Both the position numbers and the translations under genes were made by a program. Source: a virus. Taken from it: a DNA stretch of 58,419 nucleotides. The notes under the pieces were generated by a model, which did not search any database, was not told the DNA's origin, and saw nothing but the letters and a program-made list of their open reading frames with translations. The first letter of the stretch is position 1, and every line of letters begins with the position of its first letter. Below, one piece after another: positions 1 to 58,419 of this stretch. The stretch lies in IMG/VR virus record IMGVR_UViG_3300045988_147113. One strand, 5' to 3'.

Positions 1-119
1 ATTTTTTTTTTCACCGGAATAGGAAGTATGTCACAGAAATATTACACACAGAAAAATACTCTTAAAACCCCAAAAACGTTGAAATTCCAACGTTTTCAGG
101 CCCTAAAAGACGTTTTCAA
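1..119. repeat. Terminal direct repeat, copy 1 (identical to 58301..58419)
   Basis: The first 119 nt recur exactly as the last 119 nt, giving a unit length of 58300 bp. This is either the assembly overlap of a circular or permuted genome, or a true DTR. Confidence 0.9.
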
Positions 120-120
120 A

Positions 121-301
121 TGTGTAACGTTTGTGTGACAAAACCGATTTGTGTGTAACGTTTGTGTGACAAAACCGATTTTGGCGTTTTTACCGCATTA
201 AGGGCATTTTCGCTCGTGTCACACAAACGTTACACACAAATCGATTTTGTCACACAAACGTTACACATTTAGAACTGCTTTTGTCACACAAACGTTACAC
301 A
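121..301. repeat. Dyad-symmetric array of the 19-nt motif TGTGTAACGTTTGTGTGAC (iteron, operator or promoter-like)
   Basis: Forward copies at 121..149 and 152..180 (29-nt units, 31-bp period). Reverse-complement copies at 218..236, 249..267 and 283..301. The array lies in the only large intergenic region between the last and first genes. Confidence 0.85.
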
Positions 302-315: not shown

Positions 316-924
316 TTAATACCATTCACTCCCTCTAAAACTGGCGTTTGAGGGGTCGTACCGCGTAAAAGACATCTTTCCGACGTTCACGCAAGTCATC
401 GCAAAACAGTCCGGACACCAGACCAAATGATACTGTTCGTCACCGCTACTCAACGGGAACCACTGCTTCGCCAAAGCCTTACGCTTCTTGAACCAGATAT
501 AATTCCTGGTGTTCTCCTCTCTGACATGGAACGCGATATCCTTCGATCGAACCGCAGAAGACATCATCAAACGACGATGCCCGCAAACACGACCATGTCT
601 ATCCATACGAGCAGGAAGCTCATCCATCGCACGACGAATCACTACTCCGCGTGATGGCGACACCGCAGAAAACCATCCATTGGTCTCGATCCATCCAGAT
701 CCATGTCTCTTACAGCGAGGACAATAGGCATTGATCTTTGTCTCGGTCATATCATATGATATTTCGGGATGTGCAAGATCCGTCTGCAACAGCAGAATAT
801 CACTCATGATGATCTCATGTCTCGGCAATAGATCATCGCATGACCCACGATGATTCACTAATCTCGTAATGGTGTTCTGTACATCGCTCATGGGGTTGAT
901 CAGTTCGAATTCGTTAATACGCAT
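316..924 (-). CDS. Hypothetical protein, possible Zn-ribbon
   Basis: 202-aa ORF with CPRC and CPDC pairs. It is the last gene of the unidirectional array. No family recognised. Confidence 0.6.
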   Translation of the reverse strand: MRINEFELINPMSDVQNTITRLVNHRGSCDDLLPRHEIIMSDILLLQTDLAHPEISYDMTETKINAYCPRCKRHGSGWIETNGWFSAVSPSRGVVIRRAMDELPARMDRHGRVCGHRRLMMSSAVRSKDIAFHVREENTRNYIWFKKRKALAKQWFPLSSGDEQYHLVWCPDCFAMTCVNVGKMSFTRYDPSNASFRGSEWY

Positions 925-6832: not shown

Positions 6833-6857
6833 AATGATCTCCTTTTATTAAAATATA

Positions 6858-6887
6858 AAGCCAAAGCCGCATGTGCGACTCAGGCTT
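6858..6887 (-). terminator. Conserved terminator hairpin (AAGCCAAAGCCGCATGTGCGACTC.GGCTT family)
   Basis: A hairpin followed on the minus strand by TTATATTT. Same family as 18402, 21758 and 22808. Confidence 0.65.
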
Positions 6888-7158: not shown

Positions 7159-7217
7159 AATATAGCCAAAAGACAAAGACCAAGCCGCATGTGCGACTCA
7201 GTCTTTTTTGTCAATTA

Positions 7218-10147: not shown

Positions 10148-13123
10148 TCACCTTGTACTTTCTAAGTTCATCCATGAGATTTTATTGGTATCCATTCCGA
10201 ACTCTTTATACATGGCTTCAAATTCCTTTCGTCGTTCTTCGCCAGGTTTTTCATAGGACTTGATCATGGTTGATTGATCGATTCCATTCCCATTTGGCAT
10301 TCCATAAACATGGACGTAGCCGCCCTCACTCGGATATTCTCCAAGATATTTGGACTTATGTTCACGATCGGCGAACTTATCAAAAGTATATCCGGGAAAC
10401 TCTTTATGAAGATCAGGCCATGGAAACTCGTCTTGTGGATGTTTGACATCACCAAACACGATTTGTGTGACATGTTGGTTCGTCGAATCATTCGGCGTGA
10501 GGCCGGACAGATTCGCCAGACCTTGACGGGCCACGAAATCCTCATGAAGATGGTTGAACACCGCTTCCGTCGCTCGGACATCATCCTCGCAATATGATTG
10601 CACCAGATCCCAAAGCTTCGGATCGACCGGCTTGTCCCACGGCATGCCGAGTTCGTGATGATCGATTCCAAGCTCGATCTCCCACTTCTTCAATGACTGC
10701 TTCTTTGCGGAGAAGTCGTAGATATCCGTATAGGAGATGTTGTAGGCATTCTGGAACATGGCGTTTCGACTGCGAGGTCCGCCAGCCACGATATCCTGAG
10801 ACAGGTTGTAGAGCTGTTGGTTGTCATAGCCGAGCCAACCCCACGCATACAGCATATGATTGTCGTATCGTCTGTTGTTGAATCCAACCAGCGCCTTGCC
10901 GCAGAGTTTGCGAACATCCTTCGGATCGGGATTGATCAAGGTCTTCACTGGATGATCCTTCTCATCACCTGCGTCTTTGAAGCAGATCATGAATAGGTTC
11001 GGGAACACCTCTACGTCGTAGAACGTCAGAATATCAGGCGTCCCAGTATGCTTTGGCGGTTCCAAGCTATCGGGTTCATCGGAACGAAGCTTCATATTCG
11101 CCACGACCTTCATGCAATAATCTCGATTATGCGTGGAGTTCATGGCAAAATTGAGAATATCCAGACGCATGTCTTCGACGTTATACTGGATGCCAGACTC
11201 GTACGCTTCGTCCAGCAGCTTACAGATGAAGTCGATCGATGGCTTGGTTCCCGGACAATATTCCTTTCTTAGATTCCCTTTGATGAGATTACGAAGATGC
11301 TGCTCATCTTTGATCGCTTTCTCATTGATCATGGTTTTATCTCCTTTGAGAGGAAGACCGCTGGAAATATGCGCGACTTCGAGATCGTTGCATGTGCTGA
11401 GTTTCCTTCGCAATGCAGACTTCCCTCGATACACCTTGCATTCCACGTTGATATCGATCAGAGGCTTCAGTCTCGTCACGTCACCATCGTAAATATAATG
11501 CAGGTGTACGCCCTTACCGGATTTGCTCAATTCCGCATACGTCGGCGGATACTTCGCGGCTTCGGCAAGATTGCGTTCCAGGCTCTTCTCGCCGTCATCG
11601 CCCTTGAGATCAAAGTCGATGACGATATGATTCTCAGGTACTCGTACCCAATGCAGTTTGGTGGTATCCACATCTTTCAATGTGCTGGTCACCTGATCCC
11701 AAGGCAACCGAGGTCCTCCGGTTGGATTATCGGCGGCGTATTGCGCCGGCCAATTCTGAGCCATGCGATCGAATGCCGAATCGGTCGAATCGAGTTCGAG
11801 TTTTCTCGCTTCGATCGGCTTCGGTTTCTCCACTTTCTCGAATTTATCCCAACGGATTCCCTCGAAACCGGTGTTACGAGTGGATTTGCGACCATTGACG
11901 ATGTTGTCAGTCGTCTTGTTGAAATATGATGACAATTCGAACAGGAAGTCATCACGTTTCATGCGCATGGTCACGTTGCCTTCATCACACCAAACCTTAT
12001 ATTGACGCCAAAGTTCGAGGCCATCGATATGATCGTTATCTTCGAATTGGTCGAGAACGCTTGACAAGAACGAATACATATCATTCGTTCTGGCCACCAT
12101 TTCGGTTGGCACGTAATTGCCATATGCGTTCGGACCCAATTCCTGATAGACCTCTCGGCAATGGTGGGCGATCGCACCGAGTTCGAACTTGATGCCGTCC
12201 ATGGCTTCGAAATATTCAGCATTGTTGAGTTTTCGTCCCGATGGATAGACGTCGATCAACCTTCGGATCAGACCAGATTTGGAGTCGGTGATCTTCACTG
12301 GTTTATTCGAGGCCATGAACAGCATTGTCTTGATCGGAATATCATACTGCTTGACGCCTTTCTCATTGACTTTGATGTATTCATGCGAAACAATGGTGTT
12401 CAACAATGAATTATCATCGATCTTTGAGAGGTCGCCGTCGCTTTGAATGGCCACAAGTGGCGCATTCTTGAACGCAGCAGTGGCGAACTGATATCCCTGA
12501 CCAAGTTCCTTGGCATTGAAGAACGAAACGTAGTTCCCGAACAGTTCCTGAATGATATTCAGAATCGTCGATTTACCGGTACCGGGAGCACCGGTAATGG
12601 CGAAGAATTTCTGAATGCGTTTCTGGTCCTTACCATCTACGATCAGACCTATGCCCCATTCGAGCTTTCGACGCTCGTCCGGGTCATAGATCGTTTCCAT
12701 CAGGCGATCATAGTTCGGCGTCGGACCCTCGATGAGATCATATGGCAATTTGAATGATGCGTAATCCTCTCGAGCAACGTCATCATTGTCAAATATAACC
12801 TTCTGATCCAGCATGATGCTGTTGTCATCGAGGTTCTTCAGTTGGGATAGATATCGGTTCCATTGTCCATTGGACATATTGTCCATGTATTCCGGAGTCA
12901 AGGTCTTGTCCGAATGCGTTGCGATATATTCGCTGATATCCCTATCAATGAGTTCGGAGAGGCGACCGACACTTCTGGACCACAGGTGCGTATCTGGATC
13001 ATATACGGCGTAGAACTGTCCACCCTTGACAATAAGATCCTTGAATCCACGGGCCCTAGGATTCGCAATGACCTTGGTTGCGGTTTTGGTGCTTTTGACT
13101 TCAGTCACTCGTATTTGGTCCAT
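10148..13123 (-). CDS. Fusion replicase: SF3 (D5-like) helicase + AEP primase + PolB 3'-5' exonuclease/N-terminal fragment
   Basis: - Walker A is GAPGTGKST (about 12569..12592).
- AEP motifs are IVIDFDL and SKSGKGVHLHYIY (about 11500..11620).
- Exonuclease motifs are ExoI FYDVEVF, ExoII GFNNRRYDNHML and ExoIII YCEDDVRA.
- GGYV is present just before the C-terminus.
- ATG at 13123 follows AAAGGAG. Confidence 0.75.
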   Translation of the reverse strand: MDQIRVTEVKSTKTATKVIANPRARGFKDLIVKGGQFYAVYDPDTHLWSRSVGRLSELIDRDISEYIATHSDKTLTPEYMDNMSNGQWNRYLSQLKNLDDNSIMLDQKVIFDNDDVAREDYASFKLPYDLIEGPTPNYDRLMETIYDPDERRKLEWGIGLIVDGKDQKRIQKFFAITGAPGTGKSTILNIIQELFGNYVSFFNAKELGQGYQFATAAFKNAPLVAIQSDGDLSKIDDNSLLNTIVSHEYIKVNEKGVKQYDIPIKTMLFMASNKPVKITDSKSGLIRRLIDVYPSGRKLNNAEYFEAMDGIKFELGAIAHHCREVYQELGPNAYGNYVPTEMVARTNDMYSFLSSVLDQFEDNDHIDGLELWRQYKVWCDEGNVTMRMKRDDFLFELSSYFNKTTDNIVNGRKSTRNTGFEGIRWDKFEKVEKPKPIEARKLELDSTDSAFDRMAQNWPAQYAADNPTGGPRLPWDQVTSTLKDVDTTKLHWVRVPENHIVIDFDLKGDDGEKSLERNLAEAAKYPPTYAELSKSGKGVHLHYIYDGDVTRLKPLIDINVECKVYRGKSALRRKLSTCNDLEVAHISSGLPLKGDKTMINEKAIKDEQHLRNLIKGNLRKEYCPGTKPSIDFICKLLDEAYESGIQYNVEDMRLDILNFAMNSTHNRDYCMKVVANMKLRSDEPDSLEPPKHTGTPDILTFYDVEVFPNLFMICFKDAGDEKDHPVKTLINPDPKDVRKLCGKALVGFNNRRYDNHMLYAWGWLGYDNQQLYNLSQDIVAGGPRSRNAMFQNAYNISYTDIYDFSAKKQSLKKWEIELGIDHHELGMPWDKPVDPKLWDLVQSYCEDDVRATEAVFNHLHEDFVARQGLANLSGLTPNDSTNQHVTQIVFGDVKHPQDEFPWPDLHKEFPGYTFDKFADREHKSKYLGEYPSEGGYVHVYGMPNGNGIDQSTMIKSYEKPGEERRKEFEAMYKEFGMDTNKISWMNLESTR

Positions 13124-13135
13124 ACCCACTCCTTT

Positions 13136-21374: not shown

Positions 21375-21406
21375 TTCGGTCATTAAAGGCCATGGATGAA
21401 TCGCGG
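21375..21406 (-). promoter_or_regulatory. Conserved upstream motif, copy 5
   Basis: Minus strand reads CCGCGATTCATCCATGGCCTTTAATGACCGAA. Confidence 0.55.
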
Positions 21407-21510
21407 CACCATGGAAACGAATGCAGCGATGACAATAAACATAATATGCTCTTGACATCGAAAAAAGCCAAAGCCGCATGTGTGAAATGCGGCCTTAGCC
21501 TTGGATGTCA

Positions 21511-21690
21511 TTAGTCATTATTTAGATTCATGTCATCAGCAGTGATCGGATTCTCCTCGTCATCCTTCTCTTCAGCTTTCTTTCCGATGTGGTAGAGAAC
21601 GCCGATTCCGGCGATTCCCAATAGCATCGAAAATGCAGTGTAGATAAGGGTGCAGATGGTGTACTTTCCGAAGAAGGTGCTAAACTTCAT
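21511..21690 (-). CDS. Small membrane protein, paralog of 19377..19562 (absent from the ORF track)
   Basis: 59 aa, MKFSTFFGKYTICTLIYTAFSMLLGIAGIGVLYHIGKKAEEKDDEENPITADDMNLNND. It has the same RBS and leader as the paralog. Confidence 0.6.
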   Translation of the reverse strand: MKFSTFFGKYTICTLIYTAFSMLLGIAGIGVLYHIGKKAEEKDDEENPITADDMNLNND

Positions 21691-21714
21691 GATAACTCCT
21701 TTATTGATGGTTAA

Positions 21715-21747
21715 TGGTTCTCATTAAAGGGTGTGTTTCATTCGCGA
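21715..21747 (-). promoter_or_regulatory. Conserved upstream motif, copy 6
   Basis: Minus strand reads TCGCGAATGAAACACACCCTTTAATGAGAACCA. Confidence 0.6.
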
Positions 21748-21757
21748 CTGCAAATAT

Positions 21758-21789
21758 AAAGCCAAAGCCGCATGTGCGACTCTGGCTTT
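21758..21789 (-). terminator. Conserved terminator hairpin
   Basis: AAAGCCAAAGCCGCATGTGCGACTCTGGCTTT, followed on the minus strand by ATATTT. Confidence 0.7.
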
Positions 21790-21813
21790 TGACGTAATCC
21801 TATAGATCACATG

Positions 21814-22209
21814 TCAGATCTTCGGTTTGGGCAGAAACCCGAGGCTTCTCGAACTGATGGTGTGATTTGTTTCGAATCCCAGCAGGATGACGATTCCAGC
21901 GAGCGAGACCCCGGCTTTCACGACGGTTTCGATGAGGCTCTTCCGATGGTCATTATAGTCGTTCTTGACGGCGACCAGCGACTTCAGCGATTCCAGATTG
22001 TGGTTCGTCATTTCATCATGACGCTCCACAACCGAACTCGTGACGTTGCCGTCGCCATCAAGAGTGTCTCTTGTGACTTCGGAAGTCCTTGTCAAATCGT
22101 CGCTCAAATCGGATTCGTTCTCCGGATTCATCTCCTCTTTGAGACGATCCAAATATGCATCGATCTGTTCATCGAACTTCTGATTAATGCTCTTCGATTG
22201 ATTGGACAT
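21814..22209 (-). CDS. Hypothetical protein with a C-terminal TM segment
   Basis: 131 aa with an acidic N-terminal part and the TM segment VKAGVSLAGIVILLGF. Confidence 0.6.
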   Translation of the reverse strand: MSNQSKSINQKFDEQIDAYLDRLKEEMNPENESDLSDDLTRTSEVTRDTLDGDGNVTSSVVERHDEMTNHNLESLKSLVAVKNDYNDHRKSLIETVVKAGVSLAGIVILLGFETNHTISSRSLGFLPKPKI

Positions 22210-22227
22210 GTTTGCTCCTTTCGGTTA

Positions 22228-22259
22228 TGTTGTCATTAAAGGCGATGATTCATGCGCGA
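22228..22259 (-). promoter_or_regulatory. Conserved upstream motif, copy 7
   Basis: Minus strand reads TCGCGCATGAATCATCGCCTTTAATGACAACA. Confidence 0.55.
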
Positions 22260-22381
22260 AAAAAAATATAAACGCCATGTCCTGTCTCAGTGGTGGTACG
22301 TGACGTTACAGCTATACTCAACATATCGGATAAATGAGAAGCCGTGTGATTAACGGCTTGTCATTATTAGGATTGATCAAG

Positions 22382-22486
22382 CTAGAACAATCCGCAGACG
22401 ATGAGGACAATCGCAATAACGAATATAGCGATAATGGCGATTGCGCCCCAGACGACGGTCTTGAAAATAGTCTTGATGAGGTCCAT
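22382..22486 (-). CDS. 34-aa hydrophobic mini-protein
   Basis: MDLIKTIFKTVVWGAIAIIAIFVIAIVLIVCGLF, with an AAGGAG RBS and motif copy 8 upstream. Confidence 0.45.
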   Translation of the reverse strand: MDLIKTIFKTVVWGAIAIIAIFVIAIVLIVCGLF

Positions 22487-22508
22487 AATAACTCCTTTGG
22501 TTGATATA

Positions 22509-22542
22509 TAGCTTCTCATTAAGGACCATGATTAATTCGCGA
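22509..22542 (-). promoter_or_regulatory. Conserved upstream motif, copy 8
   Basis: Minus strand reads TCGCGAATTAATCATGGTCCTTAATGAGAAGCTA. Confidence 0.55.
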
Positions 22543-22653
22543 ATACATCATCAAGCTCCTTGCCCAAAAATATAAACCATACGCATCATCGGACAAGAAG
22601 CAAAGCAGATGGCTTTGCTTCTATTGATCATTCCTGATTAGAGGAAATGGTGT

Positions 22654-22740
22654 TCAGTGTTCTTGCGTCAAAGCGACCGCATAGTACTCTCCAGCGAGAG
22701 CAGCGATTGCGATGGCAATGGCGGAAATTCCAGCGAACAT
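22654..22740 (-). CDS. 28-aa hydrophobic mini-protein
   Basis: MFAGISAIAIAIAALAGEYYAVALTQEH, with an AAAGGAG RBS and motif copy 9 upstream. Confidence 0.4.
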   Translation of the reverse strand: MFAGISAIAIAIAALAGEYYAVALTQEH

Positions 22741-22763
22741 AGTTTTCTCCTTTAATGATGGTA

Positions 22764-22796
22764 TGGTTCTCATTAAAGGACATGTTTCATTCGCGA
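22764..22796 (-). promoter_or_regulatory. Conserved upstream motif, copy 9
   Basis: Minus strand reads TCGCGAATGAAACATGTCCTTTAATGAGAACCA. A perfect 10-bp stem forms between 22749..22758 and 22770..22779 and includes the SD. Confidence 0.6.
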
Positions 22797-22807
22797 CTGC
22801 AAATATA

Positions 22808-22837
22808 AAGCCAAAGCCGCATGTGCGACTCTGGCTT
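22808..22837 (-). terminator. Conserved terminator hairpin
   Basis: AAGCCAAAGCCGCATGTGCGACTCTGGCTT, followed on the minus strand by TATATTT. Confidence 0.7.
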
Positions 22838-22842
22838 GATGA

Positions 22843-23097
22843 TCATTCATCAATATACATTTTTTCAGCGATCTTTTTTGCGATTTGATCTCGACGTCCG
22901 TGTCCCCACGTAGTGATGGTTATACACAAGGTTGGATGATCGTAAAATGGATACGTTACTATGGCATGGTTATAGCTCTTTACGTATGGTAAAGAGCCGA
23001 CCACGTTAAGAATCGTGTTCACTTGATCTTGGTCCTTGCAATAGCCATCGGCAGTGAAAGACTCGGTTCGGTTCAAAATCTTGTCGATGATAAGCAT
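22843..23097 (-). CDS. Hypothetical protein
   Basis: 84 aa from the ATG at 23097 (AAAGGAG RBS). Confidence 0.55.
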   Translation of the reverse strand: MLIIDKILNRTESFTADGYCKDQDQVNTILNVVGSLPYVKSYNHAIVTYPFYDHPTLCITITTWGHGRRDQIAKKIAEKMYIDE

Positions 23098-23120
23098 GAT
23101 TACTCCTTTGATATTGTTGA

Positions 23121-23153
23121 ATTTCTTCAATAAAGGACATGTATCATGCGCGA
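23121..23153 (-). promoter_or_regulatory. Conserved upstream motif, copy 10
   Basis: Minus strand reads TCGCGCATGATACATGTCCTTTATTGAAGAAAT. Confidence 0.5.
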
Positions 23154-23161
23154 AAAAAAAT

Positions 23162-23193
23162 AAAGAGCAAGCCGCACATGCGGCTTGCTCTTT
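23162..23193 (-). terminator. Terminator hairpin
   Basis: AAAGAGCAAGCCGCACATGCGGCTTGCTCTTT is a perfect palindromic stem with a T-run on the minus strand. Confidence 0.7.
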
Positions 23194-23403
23194 TCAGACG
23201 AGAGTGATGGTCTTCAGATAATCTGCGAATGCACTCATGTCTTCCAGGTTGGTACTGACCATGATCACCCGAAGCTTCTTTGTCTTGGTCGTAAGAATAC
23301 CGCTCTCCGTTTCCGGATCGCAGTGGTTCTTGATCCACTGAACAAGCTTCAGGCAGGTGTGCTGGCTGTACTGTTGGCTGACATAAGTAAACGTATCGTT
23401 CAT
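23194..23403 (-). CDS. Hypothetical protein
   Basis: 69 aa from the ATG at 23403 (AAGGAG RBS). Confidence 0.55.
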   Translation of the reverse strand: MNDTFTYVSQQYSQHTCLKLVQWIKNHCDPETESGILTTKTKKLRVIMVSTNLEDMSAFADYLKTITLV

Positions 23404-23424
23404 GATTGCTCCTTTATGATAGAT

Positions 23425-23457
23425 TCTCTTGTCATTAAAGGCCATGTACGATTCGCG
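23425..23457 (-). promoter_or_regulatory. Conserved upstream motif, copy 11
   Basis: Minus strand reads CGCGAATCGTACATGGCCTTTAATGACAAGAGA. Confidence 0.55.
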
Positions 23458-23469
23458 TCGAGACAAAAT

Positions 23470-23502
23470 ATAAGAGCCCATGCGCGCGGCATAGGCTCTT
23501 AT
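23470..23502 (-). terminator. Terminator hairpin (ATAAGAGCCCATGCG....GCATAGGCTCTTAT family)
   Basis: Near-identical to the hairpin at 23847..23879. Confidence 0.65.
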
Positions 23503-23508
23503 ATGATA

Positions 23509-30597: not shown

Positions 30598-33500
30598 CGA
30601 CCTCCATTTCGATTCATTTGCTCGAATTGACGGAACTGCGTACGGGTCTGCTTGTAGATATCATAACGACTGAGCGCCTTCGGAGAAGTGTTGTTCTGCG
30701 TGAAGTCGTAGTTGTTGATGATCTGCTGAGGGGTCTTCTCAACACTTTCGGCAGCACGACCGGCATCCCTCTGGCGAGGCATCGCAGTGATCTTGTCGAT
30801 CATCTTGGACGAATATCCGATGCCAACTGTGTCGGACAGCATGGAATTCAGATATGCGGCTTGACCCTCGACGACCGATAGATCCATCACCGGAGTGATG
30901 GTCGGATTGACATCGAATTCCGGAATATCGAGCTTGCCGATGTTGCTCAACGAGGAATCGACAACGTCGATGCCGCTCGTCATCATGGTCTTTGCGGCTC
31001 GAACAACTCCACCGACATTGTCGGCGATGCCGTTCTCCAAGCCCTTGTCGAACCACATACCGACCTTGGCCATGACACGTGACGGCGATTTGATCTTGCC
31101 TGCTTCCTTAGCTGCCTCAACAGCATTCGACACGGCATCTGCTGCGGCCTGGCTGACAACACCGGAATTGCGTGAGATACCCACGGCCAAACCGACTGCC
31201 AGATAGGAACCGGCACTCTCGAAGCTTCCCCGATATGCACGAGCACCGTTGACAGCGGCACTCAGCGCGTTATTGAAGATGCCCGAAAGATTGCCGATAC
31301 CAGAACGCATGCCGCTGCCCAGACTGTTCGCCAAACTACGTCCCTCTTGCGAGAAACGACCGTTGTACGAGGAAATCGCCTGAGCGACCAGGTTGAGACC
31401 GGTACGAGTGGCTCCGATTATCGGCGTGAACGATGCCTGCCAGATCGAAGCGAAACCGCTCAACCAAGTGGCGAGAGCATTCAATGCCGAACGGATCTGG
31501 TTTGCTCCAGAATTCGCAGCACTTGCAGCGGCACTCATCTGAGACGAGAGATTACCGCTCAGATTGATACCACTGAAAGCGGAATTCAGGGCATTCACGG
31601 ATCCGGTCAAGGTCGTTGTGCCAGTGCTCAACGCCGTGTTCAACTCGGACAGACCAGTGCTAATGGAACTATTGGCATTTTGAATGGCCCTGACCAGAGA
31701 CATGAACGATGTCGCGGCGAGCGTGGACACGGCTTGCTGGAACGCCGTGACTCCGCCATACTCGGCAGGCATTCCGCCCATGACCTTGGACAACGAACCA
31801 ACGGCACTGACGCTGGCCGAAATATTCGAGAAGTCCAGTCCAGCTACATGGGATGTGTAGTTCGACAATCCGACACCAAGCTGAGTAGCAGCCGTGATGA
31901 ATCCGACCGATGTACCTTCCATCTTCATGCCGCCAAGACCGTTGACGACATTGATTAACGAACGCAATGGAGCGAACGTCGGTGTGATGGCATCCGGAGC
32001 CACCTCGGAAACGGCGTTGTAGTATCCAGCCAGACCGTTGCCGAGCTGTGTTGCAGCAGCCTTTATGGGACCGAAATCGCCGACCTGACTGAAGTCGCTC
32101 TTCAGAATCTCGGTCAACGACTTAACTGCCGGAACAGTGTTCTGAATGGCTCCGACGTTGACATCATCACCGGATACGGCTTTGCCATATCCGGCAAGTG
32201 CCTCGCCGAGACCCTTCAGGCCTTCAGTGAGCGTGCCCCAGTTCTTACCACCGACAATCTTCTGCCACCAACCGTCATCAGAAGGAACGTTCTGAAGTAC
32301 GTTGTTCAGCGTCTTAACGGCTGGAACCGTCTTCTGAATGGCTTCAATATTGACGCCGTCTCCGGAGATGGCTTTGCCATATCCAGCAAGCGCCTTACCC
32401 ATTCCAGTGAGTCCGGTGGACAGCGTGCTCCAGTCCTTGCCACCGGCGATCTTCTGCCACCAGCCGTCATCGGAAGGAACAGCATTCAGCACACCGTTCA
32501 ATCCGTTGAGTGCTTCGATAGAAGCACTTATCGGTCCGGGCTGAAGTCCAGTCACGGTAATACCGTACATCTTCAACGCCATGCCCATTTGGACGAGGCC
32601 GTTGGATAAGGTGCTCCAGTCCTTACTACCGGCAATCCTCTGCCAAAGCCCATCGTCGGCAGGAAGCGCATTCAGCACTTGTGTCAATGCTTGAGCAGCC
32701 ATGGCAGACGACACGATGGATGCTGAATCCAAATCAGCAACCACTGCGGAGTAGTCTTTTAATGCTTGGCCAAGCGGTACCAGCTTGGTTCCGAAATTCT
32801 CAATACCATCGCCACCGGTTATGAAACTGGTGATGGCATCGAGAAGATTCGAAGCCGTGAGCTTGAGCACCACATTAGCCAAAGTATCAACTGCCGTTGC
32901 GACAGAGCCATCGATCTCTTTGGCTCCGGCAATGAATGGCTTCAGATTGGTCATGAAGTTGGACAAACCGGTAGCCAATGCCGGCAGCGAACTTCCAATC
33001 GCTCCCATGATGGCACCGGTAATAGCACCGGCAATGGATCCGATGAATCCGCCAAGTGCGGCTCCGATCTTCGCCATGAACGCAGCGCCTTCAGACACTA
33101 ACCAGTCGACGCCGGGTATCTGCTTAATGGCACCAGCGGCAACGACGATGGCAGAGAGACCGGCGATGAAGGTCGCCAAAGCGGTGACGCCACTCATAGC
33201 GGCACCGACGTTGATCAGGCTCATGATCGCTGCCGTTGCGGATATGGCCAGAATGGTTCCGGACAACGACGCTGCGATGGTGCCAACGCTGTCGATGTTC
33301 ATGGCGGACATCAGTCCGAAGACCAATGCCAACTCGGTCAGGATTGCAGCCATTGCCGAGCCGACAGCCAGAACACCGAGGACGTTCTTCTTCGCGGTCT
33401 CCATGATCTTGAATGCGCCGGTCATGGCGATCAAGGCCGTGGATAGCGATACCGCCGATGCCACGGTGTTGACTGGATTCAGCAGATTCATGAGCGCGAA

Positions 33501-36500
33501 GACACCGGTAAGGGCTGTCATGAGCCCGATCATGGTGCCGCCAACCATCAGTGCTCCAATGACATCTTTCTTCATCTTTGCCAACGCCTTGAATATCAAG
33601 GCCATGACTCCAACGGAAAGAAGTAGCGAAGTAAGCACCGATGGATCGAGATTGCGTATCGAATCAGCGATGGCAGTGAATATGGCGGTCATGATATTGC
33701 CAAGAGCTGCTGTAATCTCCGGAGCATGACCGGCCACGGCGTTAAGCGCTGCAACCAGAATGGTTACAAGACTGTCGGTGATGGTGTCAGCGTGTGCGGC
33801 AACCACCTGCAATATCTTATCGATCATTGCTACGACGGTTTCGGCGACTGCCGGAACTTGCTGGACAAGCCACGCCATAAGATCCCTGAGAATCGATGAC
33901 AACGCGTCAAGAATCTGAGGCAAAGCAGCCACGATCACCTGAAGAACGCCGATCAACGCGGTCACCAAAGACTTCGCCAATGCCGGAATGAACTGAATCA
34001 GAGCGTCGAGCGCCGTCGCCAGAATGCCACCGGCAGCGGACCCGGTGGCTGCGAGAGCGGTGAGGCCAGCTCCGGCAAGTGCCATGCCGGCGCCGATGGC
34101 GAGGCAGGCGAGACCGAACACGCCCATGGCTTTGGCGACTGCCATAAGCTCTGCGGCCATCGGGCCGAGAACCGTGCCTGCGAATCCGAGTCCGAGAAGA
34201 GCCCCATAGAATCCAGTCAACCCAGTAATGAGCTGCTTAAGATCCATCGATCCCATAAGACGGATGGCGACGGCAAGGACCGTGATTCCAGCGGCGAATG
34301 CCATCATCCCTGCGGCTTGACCAGCCATGTTGTTGGGCATGAGATTCATGGCCGCAACCATACCCGCTAAAGCCAAACCGAAACCGCTGAGACCCTTGGC
34401 CAGACTATTCAGATCCATTCCGCCAAGGACCTTGATCGGAATGGTCAATGCAACAGCCGCCGTGGCAAATGACAATATAGCGGCTGAAGCCATCAGCATT
34501 CCGGCAAATTGGCCATTGAACTTGCTGAATAGTGCCATGGCTCCGGCGAAGGCGCCGAGGGTGATGACCAAAGCGCCGACGCCTTTGGCGAGGTCATCAA
34601 GATCCATGCCGCCGAGCACCTTGATCGGGACCGCAAGAAGCACCATGGCGGTCGCGAATGCCATGATGGCCGCTGCGGACTTCCCATAACTGCCGCCTAT
34701 ACCTTGGATATAACCGAGTCCGGCCATCGCGCCGGCGAGGACGCCCAAGCCAATCGCTATCGAACCGAGACCCTTAGCAAGATCATCAAGGTCCATAGTG
34801 CCAAGGATCTTGACCGCGGCGGCAAGAGGAATCAGAGCCGTCGCCATCAAGAGAATATTCTTGCCGACACCGGAATAATCAGCACCGAATTTCGCACCGG
34901 CGCCAAGACCGCCCATGGCTGTGGTCAGAAGAACGATGCCCAGTGCGACGGCATTCATGGAACGCGCAAGGTCATCGGGTTTGACGCTCGCAATCATGAG
35001 AATAGCTCCGGCGAGCACGGCCAAGGAGGAAGCCATCAATATGAATCCAGTGCCCAACTTAATCATGTTGGTGCCGACGGCATTCAGTCGTTCTGGCTTG
35101 GCCGTTCCCATCAAAGCGATTGATCCGCCGAGAGCGACGATCGCAGTGGCCATCGAACCAAATATCACTGCGATTTGCGCTGGATCCATGTCCTTGAGCA
35201 TATAGGCGGCTTCAGCCATAAGCTTCATGGAAGCGCCAAGCGCCACCATGGCCAAAGCGACCTTATTCAACGCATCGAAATCAAAGACCAGTTTTCCGGC
35301 TTTGTTGGTTACTTCTGCCAAAGCAGCAAGTCCAGTCATCATGCCGGTCATGACGGCAATGATGGCGGTCATGGCGCCAAGCGCCGGCATGATCTTTTCG
35401 GTCCTAATGGTCGACAATTGTGTTAAGGCGTCAGCAAGCAAGTTGATCGATGCGGCAATAGCGGCGATCGAAACGATCTTGAACGACTTGGCGAAATCCT
35501 TAAATGAATTACCGATATCATCGAGAGTCTTCTTCAGAGCGCCTTTGAAGGTCGACTTCTCAAGATCATCGCCAACTTCATTGAGTCCCTTGATGAACTT
35601 TCTAAGACCGACGAGAACGCCAGTCAATAAACCACCATTGATCAACGACAGAATCTGATCGAGGGTGATCTTACCGTTAAGATCGCCGAAGAATCGCTGA
35701 ATAGCTTCTCCGATTTCCCGAACACGATCGCCAATCCAATCAAATACCGGTTGAAGCGATTGCACTGCCGAAGCGATCTTATCCGAAACCTTCTGAGCGA
35801 TATCAGGAACGGTTCCGAATTTATCTTGGAATGCCTGTTGGAATTCGATACCGTATCGATCGACTTCTTTAGTCCAATCGGCCAAGGCGTTGCTGATAAT
35901 ACCGAGAATATCGGGGAATCCAGAAGAGCCCTTCTTTAAGCCATCAAACATGCCATCGAATACACCACTGATGGATTTGCCAATGGTTTCGACGACGGTT
36001 CCAAGCGACGAGAATGCAGATTCCCAGAATTTAATAAGATTGGTAACAACCTGAGATTGTCGAACGTATGCAGCAAATGCTCTGGCACCATCAATAACCG
36101 ATGAAGCGATATTAATGAATGCTCCAGAGATTTTTCCAGCAAAGCCAAGCAATACACCGAAGCCCTTGGCTACCAAACCAACAGCACCGAGAAGTGCCTT
36201 AAATGCTGTCGCCACAACCTTGGTAGTTGTTCCAATGACATTCAGCAACTGAGGCGAAGGCTTCAGCCCTTCGGTGAACTTGCGGAAAGCTTCAGTAAGT
36301 GCATAAATGGTATCACCACTCATGCTAGGCATGACTTCGTCCCAAGCCTTGCCCACCGCCTGAATGATCGTCTTCAGGGAATTCCAAACATTAGCTAGGC
36401 CCTGAATGACATTCTCTCGACCGGACATCCGCTGCATTTTGTTGGCGAAATCATCAGCGGAAATACTGCCATTTTGAAGACCTGCATTGAGTGCGTTTAG

Positions 36501-52560: not shown

Positions 52561-52984
52561 ATGGACATCATCTCCTTTTGTTAGCGGATTCTCAACGCTA
52601 TCGCAGAGTTTTCTAGGGGTATTGGGGAGAATCATGCTCGATCCAAGGGAGTATTTCCACCGTTTCGCAGCGGTACATGTATCGGAAACTAATTCGGAGA
52701 GCACCCAACACCCCCGGAGAACCCTACGAGAGCTAAAAAGCAATTCCAAAATATCCCCCGCGGGGTATTTTCGAGTTGCCGGGCGATGCTATAGGGGGTG
52801 TGTTTTTCACGACCCCTCCCCCCGGTATCTCAAAAGAGATCCTAGGGTTGGGCATCTCAATAATTTTGAATTCGAACGAATCTAAATTCAAAATTATTCT
52901 TTGATATGAATTATAAACCATCCATAGATGGTTGCAGTCGAATGAAAGTTAATTCATTCGCATTTAATTGATTTCGATTTGCAA

Positions 52985-53212
52985 CGACAACGAATGATAA
53001 CAATCAGCATCGATGAACGATGTGATTCATATAGGCAAATGCTATTCGTTGCTCATATGAATCACATCATTCATCATTGTTGCTGTTGTTATTCATGCAT
53101 GTCGACAACGAATGATAACAATCAGCATCGATGAACGATGTGATTCATATAGGCAAATGCTATTCGTTGCTCATATGAATCACATCATTCATCATTGTTG
53201 CTGTTGTTATTC
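52985..53212. repeat. Two perfect 110-bp tandem repeats, each a long imperfect hairpin
   Basis: 52985..53094 is identical to 53103..53212 (118-bp period, ATGCATGT spacer). Within each unit, GATGAACGATGTGATTCATAT pairs with ATATGAATCACATCATTCATC. Confidence 0.9.
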
Positions 53213-53512
53213 GTTTGATGCAGCAGACGGAACTTCGCGCCATGAAGGACGCTTAGCTAATGTGTACACACCCAAAGGATCATGAGCAAAGAGATCTCGA
53301 ATCATTCGAGCATACTCGATGGCTTGATCCTCATCAGACATGTTGTCATAACCCATGAACATTTGGTTGACTAAACCACATGTATCATAGCCCATGGCAA
53401 TGTCTAGATTCATCCACCCTTCGAAATCAACGAATGGATTGATAGGGTTGTCCACTGTGGTTACCAATACATCATGTCTAAGGCATGCTTGCTCTAGCGG
53501 TGATAATGTCAT
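53207..53512 (-). CDS. Hypothetical protein
   Basis: 101-aa ORF downstream of the RNAP-like gene. Confidence 0.55.
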   Translation of the reverse strand: MTLSPLEQACLRHDVLVTTVDNPINPFVDFEGWMNLDIAMGYDTCGLVNQMFMGYDNMSDEDQAIEYARMIRDLFAHDPLGVYTLAKRPSWREVPSAASNE

Positions 53513-53518
53513 ACTTCA

Positions 53519-56320: not shown

Positions 56321-56333
56321 AATCCGCTCCTTT

Positions 56334-56927
56334 CTAGAAGATCAATTTATTAGCTTTCGCTTCGGCGCGAAGTTCACGAATCATCTTATCATCATGAACG
56401 ATAAGATTCATAACATCCTTGATGGTTTCCGGATCAGTAAACTCTTCAATGCGAACTTCATCATTCTGATAGAGTCGGCATTCAAAATTGATATCATCTG
56501 GTTTGATGTTGTACTCGAGACAGAACAGAGCGCAATACACATGCAGCTGTCCGAACTCGAGCACATCCTTCTGACCGGTCTTGAGATCAAATACTCGAAG
56601 AAGTTTCTTCTTGGGATCGAATCCGATAAGATCGGCAGTCCCGAAACAATACTCGCTGTAATAGAGCACCACTTCCGGACTCATGTTGTATCCGAGACCA
56701 TCATTGATGAACTCGTTGATGGTCTCATGGTTGCGCGGCATCTTCCGACCCATCCTATTCGCAAACTCGGCGAAGGCGTGAAGCTGTGTGCCACGTTCTT
56801 TCATGAGATTGGAATAGAAGATATCCTTGAAGTGCTCATCGTCGTAGTTGAGCCAGACATGATGACTGGCACTCAAATATGCATGCTTACCTTGAAGGTC
56901 AGTGTGCTGATTGAACGTGAATGTCAT
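56334..56927 (-). CDS. PD-(D/E)XK nuclease (RecB/Cas4-like exonuclease fold)
   Basis: 197 aa from the ATG at 56927. GTADLIGFDPKKKLLRVFDLKTGQ fits the D...(D/E).K motif. Confidence 0.5.
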   Translation of the reverse strand: MTFTFNQHTDLQGKHAYLSASHHVWLNYDDEHFKDIFYSNLMKERGTQLHAFAEFANRMGRKMPRNHETINEFINDGLGYNMSPEVVLYYSEYCFGTADLIGFDPKKKLLRVFDLKTGQKDVLEFGQLHVYCALFCLEYNIKPDDINFECRLYQNDEVRIEEFTDPETIKDVMNLIVHDDKMIRELRAEAKANKLIF

Positions 56928-57734: not shown

Positions 57735-57742
57735 GGTTCCTC

Positions 57743-58207
57743 CTAATACACTCGATGGGCATCGGTAATGTACACATGTACAAGATGCCGGCACTTCACG
57801 CAATAGACGATATGCAACAACAAGCGAACACCATTCAAATCGATTTGACTCGGAGCATCATCTCGAATAACTGGTGCGGTCACTTCCCAGCTCTCTCGGT
57901 TATGGTTGCAATTAATCCCCTCTGTCGACATTTGCTGTGCGATCTGTCGAATGGCGTCGGCATCGACGTGAGGGATCTTATCGAGCGGCACCATGAGTTT
58001 GGTTCGCTTGCGACATCCAGAACAATAACACGCCAGGACGAAATCGTTCATGGAAAAATTACGGCGTTCCTGAGGTGTGAGTTCATCTGGATCGATCTTC
58101 GGGATACTGATGCATACCGGAGTCCCTGGTTGACATCTACACCCAATCATGTCGTGGGCGATTTCGTAAATGGTTTCTCGATTACCATCGAGGATGAAAT
58201 AAGTCAT
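57743..58207 (-). CDS. Hypothetical Cys-rich early protein
   Basis: 154 aa from the ATG at 58207 (AAAGGAA RBS). It has several CxxC pairs. It is the first gene after the repeat array. Confidence 0.55.
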   Translation of the reverse strand: MTYFILDGNRETIYEIAHDMIGCRCQPGTPVCISIPKIDPDELTPQERRNFSMNDFVLACYCSGCRKRTKLMVPLDKIPHVDADAIRQIAQQMSTEGINCNHNRESWEVTAPVIRDDAPSQIDLNGVRLLLHIVYCVKCRHLVHVYITDAHRVY

Positions 58208-58241: not shown

Positions 58242-58261
58242 TGTGTAACGTTTGTGTGACA
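58242..58261. repeat. Third forward copy of the TGTGTAACGTTTGTGTGAC motif
   Basis: Shares GTTTTCAAATGTGTAACGTTTGTGTGACA with the copy at 113..140. It sits about 35 nt upstream of the first early gene start (58207). On the circular map this makes 3 forward and 3 reverse copies. Confidence 0.85.
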
Positions 58262-58300
58262 TAGGTTATACTTTATATCTTTTCATATTATAATGATTAT

Positions 58301-58419
58301 ATTTTTTTTTTCACCGGAATAGGAAGTATGTCACAGAAATATTACACACAGAAAAATACTCTTAAAACCCCAAAAACGTTGAAATTCCAACGTTTTCAGG
58401 CCCTAAAAGACGTTTTCAA
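58301..58419. repeat. Terminal direct repeat, copy 2
   Basis: Exact copy of 1..119. Confidence 0.9.

What the first reader, a model, noticed from the sequence alone, without database searches (positions are those of the whole stretch)
121..301. 3 + 3 dyad-symmetric array of a 19-nt repeat at the junction between the last and first genes
**Forward copies** of TGTGTAACGTTTGTGTGAC lie at 58242, 121 and 152. The latter two are 29-nt units with a 31-bp period.

**Reverse-complement copies** lie at 218, 249 and 283. The latter two carry a shared 3' extension, TTTAGAA(C/G)TGCTTTT.

The forward and reverse copies converge on a 37-bp spacer (181..217). The motif contains the AACGTT palindrome. The array occupies the only intergenic region where transcription of the whole unidirectional genome must start and end, and it lies next to an AT-rich stretch with TATAAT boxes (58280..58300).

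Candidate functions are an origin of replication (iterons), operators for the HTH protein or for the HTH modules of the RNAP-like protein, or packaging-recognition repeats.
Basis: seen in the sequence. Interest (0 to 1): 0.65.

Follow-up and report, generated by a model that had tools for sequence, protein, structure and literature searches.

The report
Binding-site array for a phage zinc-ribbon protein
The repeats are real: seven 19-bp docking sites in fixed geometry, apparently read by the phage's own small zinc-ribbon protein encoded next door, and most likely marking the replication origin of a human-gut phage, with matched protein and site variants in related phages.

Summary
The six exact 19-mers are real (0.02 expected by chance), and there is a seventh, degenerate copy. 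The "3+3 dyad" comes from the linear display. Bases 1-119 repeat 58301-58419, an assembly overlap of a 58,300-bp circle.

Read along the coding (minus) strand, the layout is FFF, a 47-bp A-tract spacer, RR, a 72-bp palindrome segment, then F, a 69-bp spacer, R, then the ribosome-binding site. That 69-bp spacer is the most AT-rich stretch in the genome. The layout recurs in 33 distinct relatives.

The left half of the 19-mer exists as alleles that change in all copies together. These alleles track two spots in the 202-aa protein encoded just upstream (316-924):
- K72 with AACG (11/11) and R72 with ACAA (20/20).
- H110 with TGTGT (18/18) and N110 with TATGT (11/13).

Across about 28 kb, no other fixed difference separates type 3 from the other types. 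I conclude that this orphan zinc-ribbon protein binds the array (about 0.8).

The most likely role is an iteron-type replication origin laid out like a SaPI ori (about 0.45). The main rival is an operator switch for the downstream nuclease/RNA-polymerase operon (about 0.3). A packaging role is rejected, because relatives' contigs end at a cos-like site about 5.5 kb away. The HTH protein and the RNAP-like protein show no co-variation with the alleles.

The parts
283..301 (-). Site F1. Reads TGTGTAACGTTTGTGTGAC on the coding (minus) strand and is preceded there by AAAAGCACTTCTAAA (302-316).
   Evidence: Exact match; extension.
249..267 (-). Site F2, preceded on the coding strand by AAAAGCAGTTCTAAA (268-282).
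218..236 (-). Site F3. It lies 31 bp from F2 here and 20 bp from F2 in most relatives, an 11-bp (one helical turn) difference.
171..217 (.). Central spacer between the inward-facing groups. Its length is held at 47-49 bp and it carries phased A-tracts, but its sequence varies freely (at least 3 haplotypes).
152..170 (+). Site R1, in the opposite orientation. Its constant half, TTTGTGTGAC, faces the spacer.
121..139 (+). Site R2, followed on the coding strand by TTTGAAAACGTCTTTT (120-105).
49..120 (-). A 72-bp segment between R2 and F4 that has exactly the same length in all relatives. It contains the invariant palindrome AAAACGTTG-N7-CAACGTTTT (73-96) and a U-run, so it could be an intrinsic terminator or a second protein site.
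   Evidence: No compensatory changes support the hairpin.
30..48 (-). Site F4, degenerate (TGTGTAATATTTCTGTGAC); the same DNA as 58330-58348. It changes allele together with the other copies.
58261..58329 (.). A 69-bp spacer between F4 and R3 with 20% GC, the most AT-rich 69-bp window in the genome. Candidate unwinding element and/or promoter region.
   Evidence: lowest-GC window of 58,300. Length 68-69 bp and GC 14-29% in all relatives, in two unrelated sequence haplotypes.
58287..58314 (-). Sigma-70-like promoter match: GTGAAA, 16 nt, TATAAT.
   Evidence: 10 of 12 positions match; the count is no higher than in shuffles, so this is weak.
58242..58260 (+). Site R3, ending 22 bp before the ribosome-binding site AAAGGAAC (58212-58219) of the first gene of the next operon. 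Followed on the coding strand by TTTGAAAACCACTTTT.
316..924 (-). Gene for the 202-aa Cys/His-rich protein, the inferred binder. Putative zinc ligands are C68, C71, C114, H116 and C170, C173, C178. Specificity residues are K72 (709-711) and 107-113 (586-606).
57743..58207 (-). First gene after the array: a 154-aa Cys-rich protein, homologous to BitterVaud1 gp66. It does not co-vary with the 19-mer alleles.
1..119 (.). Assembly overlap, identical to 58301-58419. Not a biological terminal repeat.

Best explanation
The array is a fixed-geometry set of seven asymmetric 19-bp sites on double-stranded DNA. The sites are bound by the phage's own 202-aa zinc-ribbon-type protein, encoded immediately upstream (316-924).

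How the protein reads the site (inferred):
- Each site is two direct half-sites 11 bp apart, TGTGTAAC and TGTGTGAC.
- The variable left half is read by the first Cys/His module. Residue 72 tracks bases 7-9, and residues 107-113, especially residue 110, track bases 1-5.
- The invariant right half is read by an invariant part of the protein.

Layout: the sites form two inward-facing groups. The first is FFF and RR around a length-conserved, A-tract (bent) spacer. The second is F and R around the most AT-rich 69 bp of the genome.

Most likely role: an iteron-type origin of replication placed directly after its recognition-protein gene at the end of the replication module. The bound protein would bend or wrap the DNA, open the AT-rich spacer and recruit the phage's D5-like (SF3) primase-helicase-polymerase. 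Because site R3 abuts the start of the downstream nuclease/RNA-polymerase operon, binding probably also gates that operon.

Shown by sequence comparison: the sites, their geometry, and the protein-site co-variation. Inferred: binding itself (my estimate ~0.8) and origin function (~0.45, which is the confidence given for this explanation).
For: 1. The sites are real and confined to this region.

2. All copies in a genome change allele together. Among close relatives (RdRP-like protein 98-99% identical) and more diverged homologues there are three alleles, TGTGTAACG, TGTGTACAA and TATGTACAA, plus a fourth, AACTTAACG. Spacers recombine freely between them.

3. Co-variation with the 202-aa protein in 33 distinct protein+array sequences from IMG/VR, ENA, Logan and human-gut metagenomes:
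- K72 with AACG, 11/11; R72 with ACAA, 20/20.
- H110 with TGTGT, 18/18.
- N110 with TATGT, 11 of 13. The exceptions are one mixed array and one AACTT array whose protein carries KNTNSKI at 107-113.
- The same pairing holds on backbones only 66-86% identical to the window protein.

4. In alignments covering window 52871-58300 and 1-23129 (5,975 variable columns in the 23-kb alignment), the only fixed differences between type 3 and the other types outside the sites are six columns in codons 107-113, all amino-acid-changing.

5. Both specificity clusters abut invariant Cys/His residues: C68, C71, C114 and H116.

6. Origin-like features:
- Near-identical 19-bp repeats at roughly 2-3 helical turns (20, 31, 34 bp).
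- The gene-then-sites arrangement at the end of the replication module (helicase at 1598-2845; D5-like primase-helicase-polymerase at 10148-13129).
- Inward-facing sites bracketing the lowest-GC window of the genome.
- Invariant distances (72 bp; 87-88 bp) despite unrelated spacer sequences.

7. This matches the SaPI ori as described in PMC9371898: 6-12 iterons immediately downstream of rep, an AT-rich centre, at least two iterons on each side pointing in opposite directions, and cognate specificity.

8. Analogous convergent arrays sit at the same syntenic spot in distant relatives: BitterVaud1 (2F+3R), the L035/L041 group (2F+3R+F+R), Circum, FP_oengus and L029.
Against: - No binding or replication data exist, and read mapping was unavailable.
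- The co-varying gene is adjacent to the array, so linkage is a confounder. It is mitigated by shuffled haplotypes between and within the array, but not eliminated.
- Four arrays are mosaic. In L104, a K72 protein sits with ACAA sites at F4 and R3. In L016, an N110 protein sits with 4 TGTGT sites. Specificity may therefore be loose, or unit B may be dispensable.
- The protein is an orphan: no Pfam, NCBIfam, PHROG or PDB match, AF2 pLDDT 49. Nothing marks it as an initiator.
- There are no DnaA boxes in the region and GC skew is uninformative.
- The AT-rich spacer must also hold the operon's promoter if the upstream hairpin terminates transcription. All origin-like features except the iteron-like identity of the sites are equally compatible with an operator/promoter complex.
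- Window 23-52.8 kb was not scanned for other co-varying genes.
Confidence: 0.45

Rival explanations
1. Operator switch only. The 202-aa protein is a transcription regulator made at the end of the replication-module transcript. It binds F4 and R3 on either side of the promoter of the next operon (154-aa protein, nucleases, RdRP-like RNA polymerase). With the upstream FFF/RR cluster it forms a looped repression or activation complex that times expression of the phage RNA polymerase. Allele diversity would then reflect type-specific cross-regulation between co-infecting phages.
For: - R3 ends 22 bp before the ribosome-binding site and lies just downstream of -10-like hexamers. F4 lies about 60-80 bp upstream, and a sigma-70-like match sits between them.
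- Distances are fixed at 87-88 and 72 bp.
- The regulator gene lies next to its target.
- In BitterVaud1 the equivalent promoter region is packed with 22-bp palindromic, operator-like sites.
- Small zinc-ribbon genes directly follow the arrays in many relatives, as expected for autoregulated factors.
Against: - Six of seven sites are identical, whereas operators usually differ in graded fashion.
- Five sites lie upstream of a terminator-like hairpin, about 90-250 bp from the promoter.
- The two spacer haplotypes share AT-richness and length but no aligned -35/-10.
- In FP_oengus a strong separate promoter lies downstream of the site-flanked AT-rich element.
- The promoter match is no better than in shuffles.
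Confidence: 0.3
2. RNA-level element. Unit A is transcribed as the 3' UTR of gene 202 and folds into a very long hairpin that terminates, stabilises or processes the long transcript. On this view the DNA repeats are incidental.
For: The predicted RNA hairpin has a free energy of -123.5 kcal/mol (z = -14.7). It is followed by a second hairpin and a U-run.
Against: - A hairpin does not need internally repeated 19-mers.
- F4 and R3 lie outside it, yet switch allele with it.
- Arm spacing differs by 11 bp between relatives without compensation on the other arm.
- Co-variation with a protein, together with sites in both orientations, fits recognition of double-stranded DNA.
- No compensatory changes support the terminator hairpin.
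Confidence: 0.07
3. Polar barrier. The two opposed groups of asymmetric sites, with their bound protein, form a Tus-Ter or RTP-Ter-like trap. The trap would stop replication forks or read-through transcription at the boundary between the long operon and the RNA-polymerase operon.
For: - The sites are asymmetric and lie in two opposed groups next to the binder's gene, as with B. subtilis rtp and its inverted Ter sites (established knowledge, not tested here).
- The position is at an operon boundary.
Against: - The protein has no similarity to Tus or RTP.
- A trap does not explain the conserved AT-rich spacer bracketed by F4 and R3.
- No data on fork movement exist.
Confidence: 0.07
4. The array consists of packaging-recognition (cos/pac) repeats or is part of a direct terminal repeat.
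For: The window begins and ends inside the region with a direct repeat.
Against: - The repeat is exactly 119 bp. That is a default MEGAHIT k-mer size (my knowledge), so it is an assembly overlap.
- At least 8 relatives' contigs end within 3 nt of each other at a GC-rich site equivalent to window ~52,786-52,790, downstream of the RNAP-like gene. Annotated relatives have the same arrangement, with the RdRP-like gene about 300-450 bp from the right end of the record.
- The terminase, portal and HNH genes lie at 44.9-51.7 kb.
- Other relatives' contigs read straight through the array.
Confidence: 0.03
5. The sites are operators or promoters read by the HTH modules of the 933-aa RdRP-like RNA polymerase, or by the 161-aa HTH protein.
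For: Both proteins carry HTH motifs. The constant half-site could be read by a protein that does not vary.
Against: - Neither gene has any substitution that tracks the alleles.
- The motif is absent from the rest of the genome, so it is not a dispersed polymerase promoter.
- Sites in both orientations do not fit promoters in a genome transcribed in one direction.
Confidence: 0.05

Closest known systems
SaPI (staphylococcal pathogenicity island) replication origins with Rep/PriRep
   Same: Iterons lie immediately downstream of the initiator ORF. Sets on the two sides of an AT-rich stretch point in opposite directions. There are 6-12 sites, with element-specific initiator/iteron matching. The replicon uses a D5/SF3-type primase-helicase (PMC9371898).
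   Different: - SaPI iterons are 5-6 bp and are read by a winged-helix domain of the helicase itself.
- Here the sites are 19-bp bipartite units, and the inferred reader is a separate 202-aa Cys/His-rich orphan protein.
- There are two dyad units, and only the second has an AT-rich centre.
- Replication function is untested.
Lambdoid phage ori iterons and O protein; iteron plasmids (P1, F, R6K, pPS10)
   Same: About 19-22-bp near-identical repeats at whole helical turns, next to bent and AT-rich DNA. Initiator specificity co-varies with iteron type among close relatives. The initiator gene is next to or overlaps its ori. (Established knowledge; review PMC4980987 listed, not read.)
   Different: Those iterons are direct repeats on one side of the unwinding element and their initiators are winged-helix proteins. 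Here the groups are inverted and the protein is unrelated.
Dyad-symmetric origins of SF3-helicase viruses (SV40 T-antigen, papillomavirus E1/E2, HSV oriS/UL9) and phage P4 ori/crr with the alpha protein
   Same: Inverted recognition sites flank the DNA that is melted. In papillomavirus a separate site-specific protein (E2) can recruit the SF3 helicase. P4 alpha is a D5-like primase-helicase that binds repeated octamers. (From memory; a lead, not a test.)
   Different: No sequence or structural relationship was shown, and the hosts and proteins are unrelated.
Asymmetric phage repressor sites (mycobacteriophage L5 gp71 stoperators; P1 C1 operators) and R1 parC/ParR
   Same: Asymmetric, near-identical sites are read by a phage-encoded protein. 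In parC, two sets of repeats flank a promoter. (Established knowledge.)
   Different: Stoperators and C1 operators are dispersed genome-wide, whereas these sites are confined to one 420-bp region. No ParA- or ParM-type partner was seen among the genes examined, and no repressor-type (HTH) binder is implicated.
The equivalent non-coding regions of related phages (Bifidobacterium phage BitterVaud1, Arthrobacter cluster AK such as Circum, Faecalibacterium FP_oengus)
   Same: Same synteny: replication genes, array, (zinc-ribbon gene), VRR-Nuc endonuclease, Cas4-like exonuclease, RdRP-like polymerase, right end. Convergent repeat groups and an AT-rich stretch are present.
   Different: The repeat sequences are unrelated (TGCACAAATGATT; TGGCCA / CCCACTTTT types), and the 202-aa family is absent outside the window's own lineage. 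I found no published description of these arrays.

Membership tests
Iteron-type replication origin | Three or more near-identical repeats of about 17-22 bp, spaced at roughly whole helical turns | tested here: met
   Six identical 19-mers plus one degenerate copy. Spacings within groups are 34, 31, 31 and (in relatives) 20 bp.
Iteron-type replication origin | Adjacent AT-rich DNA-unwinding region | tested here: met
   The 69-bp spacer 58261-58329 is the lowest-GC window of the genome (20%). It is bracketed by F4 and R3, with length and AT-richness conserved. Actual melting was not tested.
Iteron-type replication origin | Cognate site-specific protein encoded nearby whose specificity matches the repeats | tested here: met
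   Residue 72 and residues 107-113 of the adjacent 202-aa protein co-vary with the site alleles in 33 distinct genomes. Physical binding was not tested.
Iteron-type replication origin | The site supports initiation of DNA synthesis, and the protein is required for replication | not testable with these tools
   Read mapping was unavailable and GC skew is uninformative.
Iteron-type replication origin | Binder belongs to a known initiator family (Rep_3/RepA, lambda O, DnaA-like, winged-helix of SF3 Rep) | tested here: not met
   No Pfam, NCBIfam, PHROG or PDB-sequence match, and no fold match. This lowers confidence that it is a member of a known initiator family, not that it works like one.
Repressor-operator control region | Sites overlap or flank a mapped promoter | tested here: inconclusive
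   One weak sigma-70-like match lies between F4 and R3, and R3 abuts the ribosome-binding site. No transcription-start data exist.
Repressor-operator control region | Binder is a recognisable transcription-factor fold (HTH, RHH, and so on) | tested here: not met
   The 202-aa protein has no such domain. Local Foldseek matches to the NrdR zinc ribbon have E of 0.3 or worse on a model with pLDDT 49.
cos/pac packaging site or direct terminal repeat | Coincides with the physical ends of virion DNA, next to the terminase genes | tested here: not met
   Contig ends cluster at window ~52,786-52,790. The 119-bp overlap is an assembly artefact. TerL lies at 46615-48381.
Tus-Ter / RTP-Ter fork trap | Opposed groups of asymmetric sites bound by a Tus- or RTP-family protein that arrests forks in one orientation | tested here: inconclusive
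   The geometry is compatible. The protein family is not met. Arrest is not testable here.
Promoter set of a phage-encoded RNA polymerase | Motif dispersed upstream of many genes in the direction of transcription | tested here: not met
   All copies lie within one 420-bp region and occur in both orientations.
CRISPR array | Direct repeats of constant orientation separated by unique spacers of similar length | tested here: not met
   The copies occur in both orientations with spacings from 20 to 91 bp.

The most novel reading that the evidence does not exclude
The 202-aa protein is a new kind of two-module zinc-ribbon DNA reader. Its natural allelic series (K72/R72; H110/N110; KNTNSKI at 107-113) amounts to a simple residue-to-base code. 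Co-circulating lytic gut phages use it as a private origin (replication 'incompatibility types'), kept diverse by selection against sharing replication or control machinery with competitors or parasites during co-infection. The same module may couple origin firing to expression of the phage's RdRP-like RNA polymerase.
Probability: 0.25. Interest if true: 0.75.

Novelty: new variant of a known kind. Interest (0 to 1): 0.58.

Why it matters
This phage belongs to a large, poorly understood group that infects Actinobacteria and Firmicutes, including human-gut members. The group's hallmark is an RdRP-like single-subunit RNA polymerase. No origin, promoter or regulator has been defined for it in the papers I could find.

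The analysis pins a conserved control region to one candidate protein. It also supplies ready-made specificity mutants: one to four amino-acid changes matched to one to three base changes. Binding, origin function and type-specific interference therefore become directly testable.

If confirmed, the result would add a new DNA-recognition module. It would also be an example of diversifying selection on replication or regulatory specificity in lytic phages.

Tried and rejected
- Nucleotide searches of both ends against 50,697 phage records found nothing.
- GC and AT skew show no inflection that could mark an origin.
- DnaA boxes are at chance level genome-wide and absent from the region.
- For the 202-aa protein, Pfam, PHROGs, NCBIfam and a PDB profile search gave nothing. 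An exhaustive HMM search found only its own 50%-identity cluster plus three marginal hits.
- The AlphaFold model was poor (pLDDT 49), so the Foldseek hits (best E 0.26, NrdR zinc ribbon locally) are not evidence.
- I did not fold the 154-aa protein, because only 76-96% identical homologues were retrievable.
- The terminator-like hairpin has no compensatory substitutions.
- The flanking motifs AAAAGTGG and TTTGAAAACNNCTTTT are not dispersed in the genome, so they are not a polymerase promoter set.
- The genome-contig scan gave only single chance hits, mostly in cyanobacteria. No prophage or plasmid copy and no host clue emerged.
- Literature searches for described arrays in cluster AK, cluster BI or YonO-like phages found none.
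- Rejected: a direct terminal repeat or packaging site; the HTH protein or the RNAP as the allele-specific binder; a CRISPR array; simple hitch-hiking as the sole cause of the co-variation.
Full report
**What is in the sequence**

The 19-mer TGTGTAACGTTTGTGTGAC is present exactly six times: at 58242, 121 and 152 on the plus strand, and at 218, 249 and 283 on the minus strand. A seventh copy with three mismatches lies at 30-48 (minus) and appears again at 58330-58348. Shuffled sequence gives 0.02 matches.

The half-site TGTGTRAC occurs 13 times in 58 kb, 12 of them here.

**Topology**

Bases 1-119 are identical to 58301-58419, and no other overlap length between 100 and 139 bp matches. 119 is a default MEGAHIT k-mer size (my own knowledge), so I read this as the overlap of a circularly assembled 58,300-bp contig, not a biological terminal repeat. 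The copy at 58242 is therefore 179 bp from the copy at 121, and the region is one continuous stretch of about 375 bp of non-coding DNA.

All long ORFs are on the minus strand. Read along that strand, the order is:
- the stop of the 202-aa gene (316-924);
- F1, F2, F3;
- a 47-bp spacer;
- R1, R2;
- a 72-bp segment with an invariant palindrome and a U-run;
- F4, the degenerate copy;
- a 69-bp AT-rich spacer;
- R3;
- the ribosome-binding site and ATG (58207) of a 154-aa gene.

Start-to-start distances are 34, 31, 66, 31, 91 and 88 bp. So the "3+3 dyad" is really two inward-facing units, FFF/RR and F/R.

**What phage this is**

The 933-aa protein matches PHROG 4291 ("RNA-dependent RNA polymerase", 1062 bits) and carries HTH motifs at both ends. 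Its relatives are about 250 phages of Arthrobacter (cluster AK), Gordonia, Streptomyces, Curtobacterium, Bifidobacterium (BitterVaud1, 51% identity), Lactococcus and Faecalibacterium. This is the group discussed in bioRxiv 10.1101/842583, where the protein is proposed to be a YonO-like or crAss-like RNA polymerase.

Synteny is conserved: helicase, non-coding region, small genes, VRR-Nuc endonuclease, Cas4-like exonuclease, polymerase, then the right end of the genome. Metagenome contig names that carry the array say human gut.

**Physical ends**

At least eight contigs of close relatives, several of them 55-60 kb, stop within 3 nt of each other at ...GGGGGAGGGGGTCGTGAAAAACACACCCCCTATGG(CAT). 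This corresponds to window ~52,786-52,790, downstream of the polymerase gene. In annotated relatives the polymerase gene also sits 300-450 bp from the right end.

The terminase, portal and HNH genes are at 44.9-51.7 kb. Other contigs read straight through the array. The array is therefore not the packaging site.

**The key result: alleles that change in concert, matched to one protein**

In 17 IMG/VR genomes whose polymerase is 98-99% identical to the window's, the array has the same architecture. The left half of the 19-mer, however, comes in three versions: TGTGTAACG (window type), TGTGTACAA and TATGTACAA. In almost all genomes every copy, including the degenerate F4, carries the same version. 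The right half, TTTGTGTGAC, is constant.

The central spacer and the AT-rich spacer each exist in several unrelated haplotypes that are shuffled with respect to the repeat version. Recombination therefore acts within the region, yet the sites stay uniform.

In a 10.4-kb alignment, the only columns outside the sites that separate TATGT genomes from the rest are six columns at window 588-605. These are codons 107-113 of the 202-aa gene and give M107K, D108N, H110N and V113I. The one amino-acid change separating AACG from ACAA genomes is K72R.

A second alignment of 23 kb covers the whole replication module and has 5,975 variable columns. It gives the same six columns and nothing else for type 3. 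The HTH gene, the D5-like primase-helicase-polymerase, the 154-aa gene and the polymerase show no such signal.

**Independent test**

I treated the pairing as a prediction and fetched homologues of the 202-aa protein that are only 66-86% identical, together with their contigs. I also fetched further human-gut metagenome contigs. In 33 distinct protein+array sequences:
- K72 goes with AACG in 11 of 11, and R72 with ACAA in 20 of 20.
- H110 goes with TGTGT in 18 of 18.
- N110 goes with TATGT in 11 of 13.
- The two N110 exceptions are L016 (4 TGTGT and 3 TATGT sites) and L082. In L082 residues 107-113 read KNTNSKI, and the one visible site begins AACTT while keeping AACG, as expected for K72.

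Three further arrays are mosaic (L095, L102, L104).

Both variable patches sit next to invariant Cys/His residues (C68, C71; C114, H116). A second invariant Cys cluster (C170, C173, C178) lies further on. A His-to-Asn change paired with a G-to-A change is what direct base contact would predict (general knowledge of protein-DNA contacts; inference).

I therefore conclude, at about 0.8, that this protein binds the 19-mers as double-stranded DNA. One module would read the variable half-site and an invariant part the constant half-site. Linkage alone is an unlikely explanation for three reasons:
- Polymorphisms between codon 113 and the array are not associated with type.
- Haplotypes within the array are shuffled relative to type.
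- The pairing recurs on divergent backbones.

**The protein**

It is an orphan. There is no Pfam, PHROG, NCBIfam or PDB-sequence match, and an exhaustive profile search finds only its own cluster. The AlphaFold model is unreliable (pLDDT 49), so the Foldseek output carries no weight.

The 154-aa product of the gene after the array is Cys-rich with a similar CxxC...CxH spacing. It is homologous to BitterVaud1 gp66, which sits just before that phage's array (E = 2e-10). Small proteins with two CxxC motifs flank the arrays of several distant relatives.

**Geometry**
- The R2-to-F4 segment is exactly 72 bp in every genome examined.
- F4-to-R3 is 87-88 bp, with a 68-69-bp spacer of 14-29% GC, whatever its sequence. 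In the window this spacer is the single most AT-rich 69-bp stretch of the genome.
- The FFF/RR spacer keeps 47-49 bp and phased A-tracts while its sequence drifts.
- F2-F3 differs by 11 bp, one helical turn, between the window and most relatives.

Such rigidity points to a defined nucleoprotein complex.

**Function**

I rank an iteron-type origin first (about 0.45). The grounds are:
- near-identical 19-bp repeats at two to three helical turns;
- a position immediately after the recognition protein's gene, at the end of the replication module;
- opposed sites bracketing the easiest-to-melt DNA;
- bent DNA in the central spacer;
- matched protein and site specificity types.

The layout is close to that described for SaPI origins, which belong to replicons that also use D5/SF3-type primase-helicases. 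There, 6-12 iterons lie directly downstream of rep, around an AT-rich centre, with at least two on each side pointing in opposite directions (PMC9371898). This phage's 993-aa protein has DUF5906 and Pox_D5 helicase domains.

The main rival (about 0.3) is a pure transcription switch. F4 and R3 flank the only place where a promoter for the nuclease/polymerase operon can lie. A weak sigma-70-like match is there, and R3 abuts the ribosome-binding site. The two readings are not exclusive.

Less likely readings are:
- an RNA hairpin role (one search gives -123.5 kcal/mol, but F4 and R3 and the protein co-variation argue for DNA recognition, and one search shows no covariation);
- a polar barrier;
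- sites for the polymerase or the HTH protein.

**Generality**

Distant relatives carry different repeats at the same spot, often with the same convergent plan:
- BitterVaud1: TGCACAAATGATT as 2F+3R, then a hairpin, an AT-rich stretch and 22-bp palindromes.
- The L035/L036/L041 group: CTGCCCACTTTT as 2F+3R+F+R.
- Circum: TGGCCA-type repeats.
- FP_oengus: TGGCCA / CCCACTTTT repeats flanking an AT-rich stretch.
- L029: ATGTAGCACAAAAA, six copies.

I found no description of these arrays in the literature available to me.

**Verdict**

It is wrong about the likely binders, the packaging role and the uniqueness of the intergenic region. The array is a new variant of a known kind, an iteron- or operator-like array with a cognate binder. 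Its unusual features are a clear natural specificity series and an orphan zinc-ribbon reader.

Noticed in passing
window 52,786-52,813 (minus-strand reading ...GTCGTGAAAAACACACCCCCTATAG|CAT): At least eight contigs of close relatives end within 3 nt of each other at this GC-rich site. It is probably the cos-type physical end of the genome. It places the RdRP-like polymerase operon at the right end, as in Arthrobacter cluster AK phages.
   Followed up: partly
window 52985-53094 and 53103-53212: A perfect 110-nt tandem duplication (118-bp period). Each copy contains a 34-nt-arm inverted repeat. It lies between the 101-aa gene after the polymerase and the cos-like end, so it might be a terminase-binding or terminator element.
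   Followed up: no
window 21380-23504, 6850-6887 and 7168-7205: A dispersed intergenic cassette of about 40-80 nt, with seven copies in 21.4-23.5 kb and two near 7 kb. It combines a GC-rich hairpin (AAGCC..GCATGTGCGAC..GGCTT), an AT-rich run and CGCGAATGAAACA just upstream of small minus-strand ORFs. These are better candidates for repeated promoter/terminator units than the 19-mer.
   Followed up: no
window 57299-57646 versus 57369-57733: The mechanical 115-aa ORF at 57299-57646 has an implausible composition. The real second gene is probably 57369-57733 (121 aa), with AGGAGGAA before its ATG. Gene callers on relatives' contigs agree.
   Followed up: partly
L016, L095, L102, L104 (arrays of relatives): These arrays mix two alleles. 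In L104, for example, unit A is AACG with a K72 protein but F4 and R3 are ACAA. In L016, the F copies are TGTGT and the R copies TATGT with an N110 protein. Either specificity is tolerant or these are recent recombinants or conversion intermediates.
   Followed up: partly
L087 (Faecalibacterium phage FP_oengus) 3045-3440: The annotated 870-bp gap upstream of the nuclease genes contains an unannotated 131-aa ORF with two CxxC motifs. It is preceded by a strong extended -10 promoter (TTGAAC, 17 nt, TG-TAATAT) and by TGGCCA / CCCACTTTT repeats flanking an AT-rich stretch.
   Followed up: partly
window 58226-58241; L005 6687-7021; L035 4871-5170; L087 2750-2930: A CCCACTTTT / AAAAGTGG(G/C)CA-type motif recurs in the arrays of distant relatives with hosts in different phyla. 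A similar string, AAAACCACTTTTTT, sits right after R3 in the window's lineage. This may be an older, shared recognition element.
   Followed up: partly
window 73-96: The palindrome AAAACGTTG-N7-CAACGTTTT is invariant in all relatives, and related half-sites (TGAAAACGT) occur next to R2. It could be a second protein's site rather than, or as well as, a terminator stem.
   Followed up: partly
window 32096-32678 and 34381-34817: In-frame 186-192-nt tandem repeats lie inside the 2564-aa gene, which is presumably the tape-measure protein.
   Followed up: no
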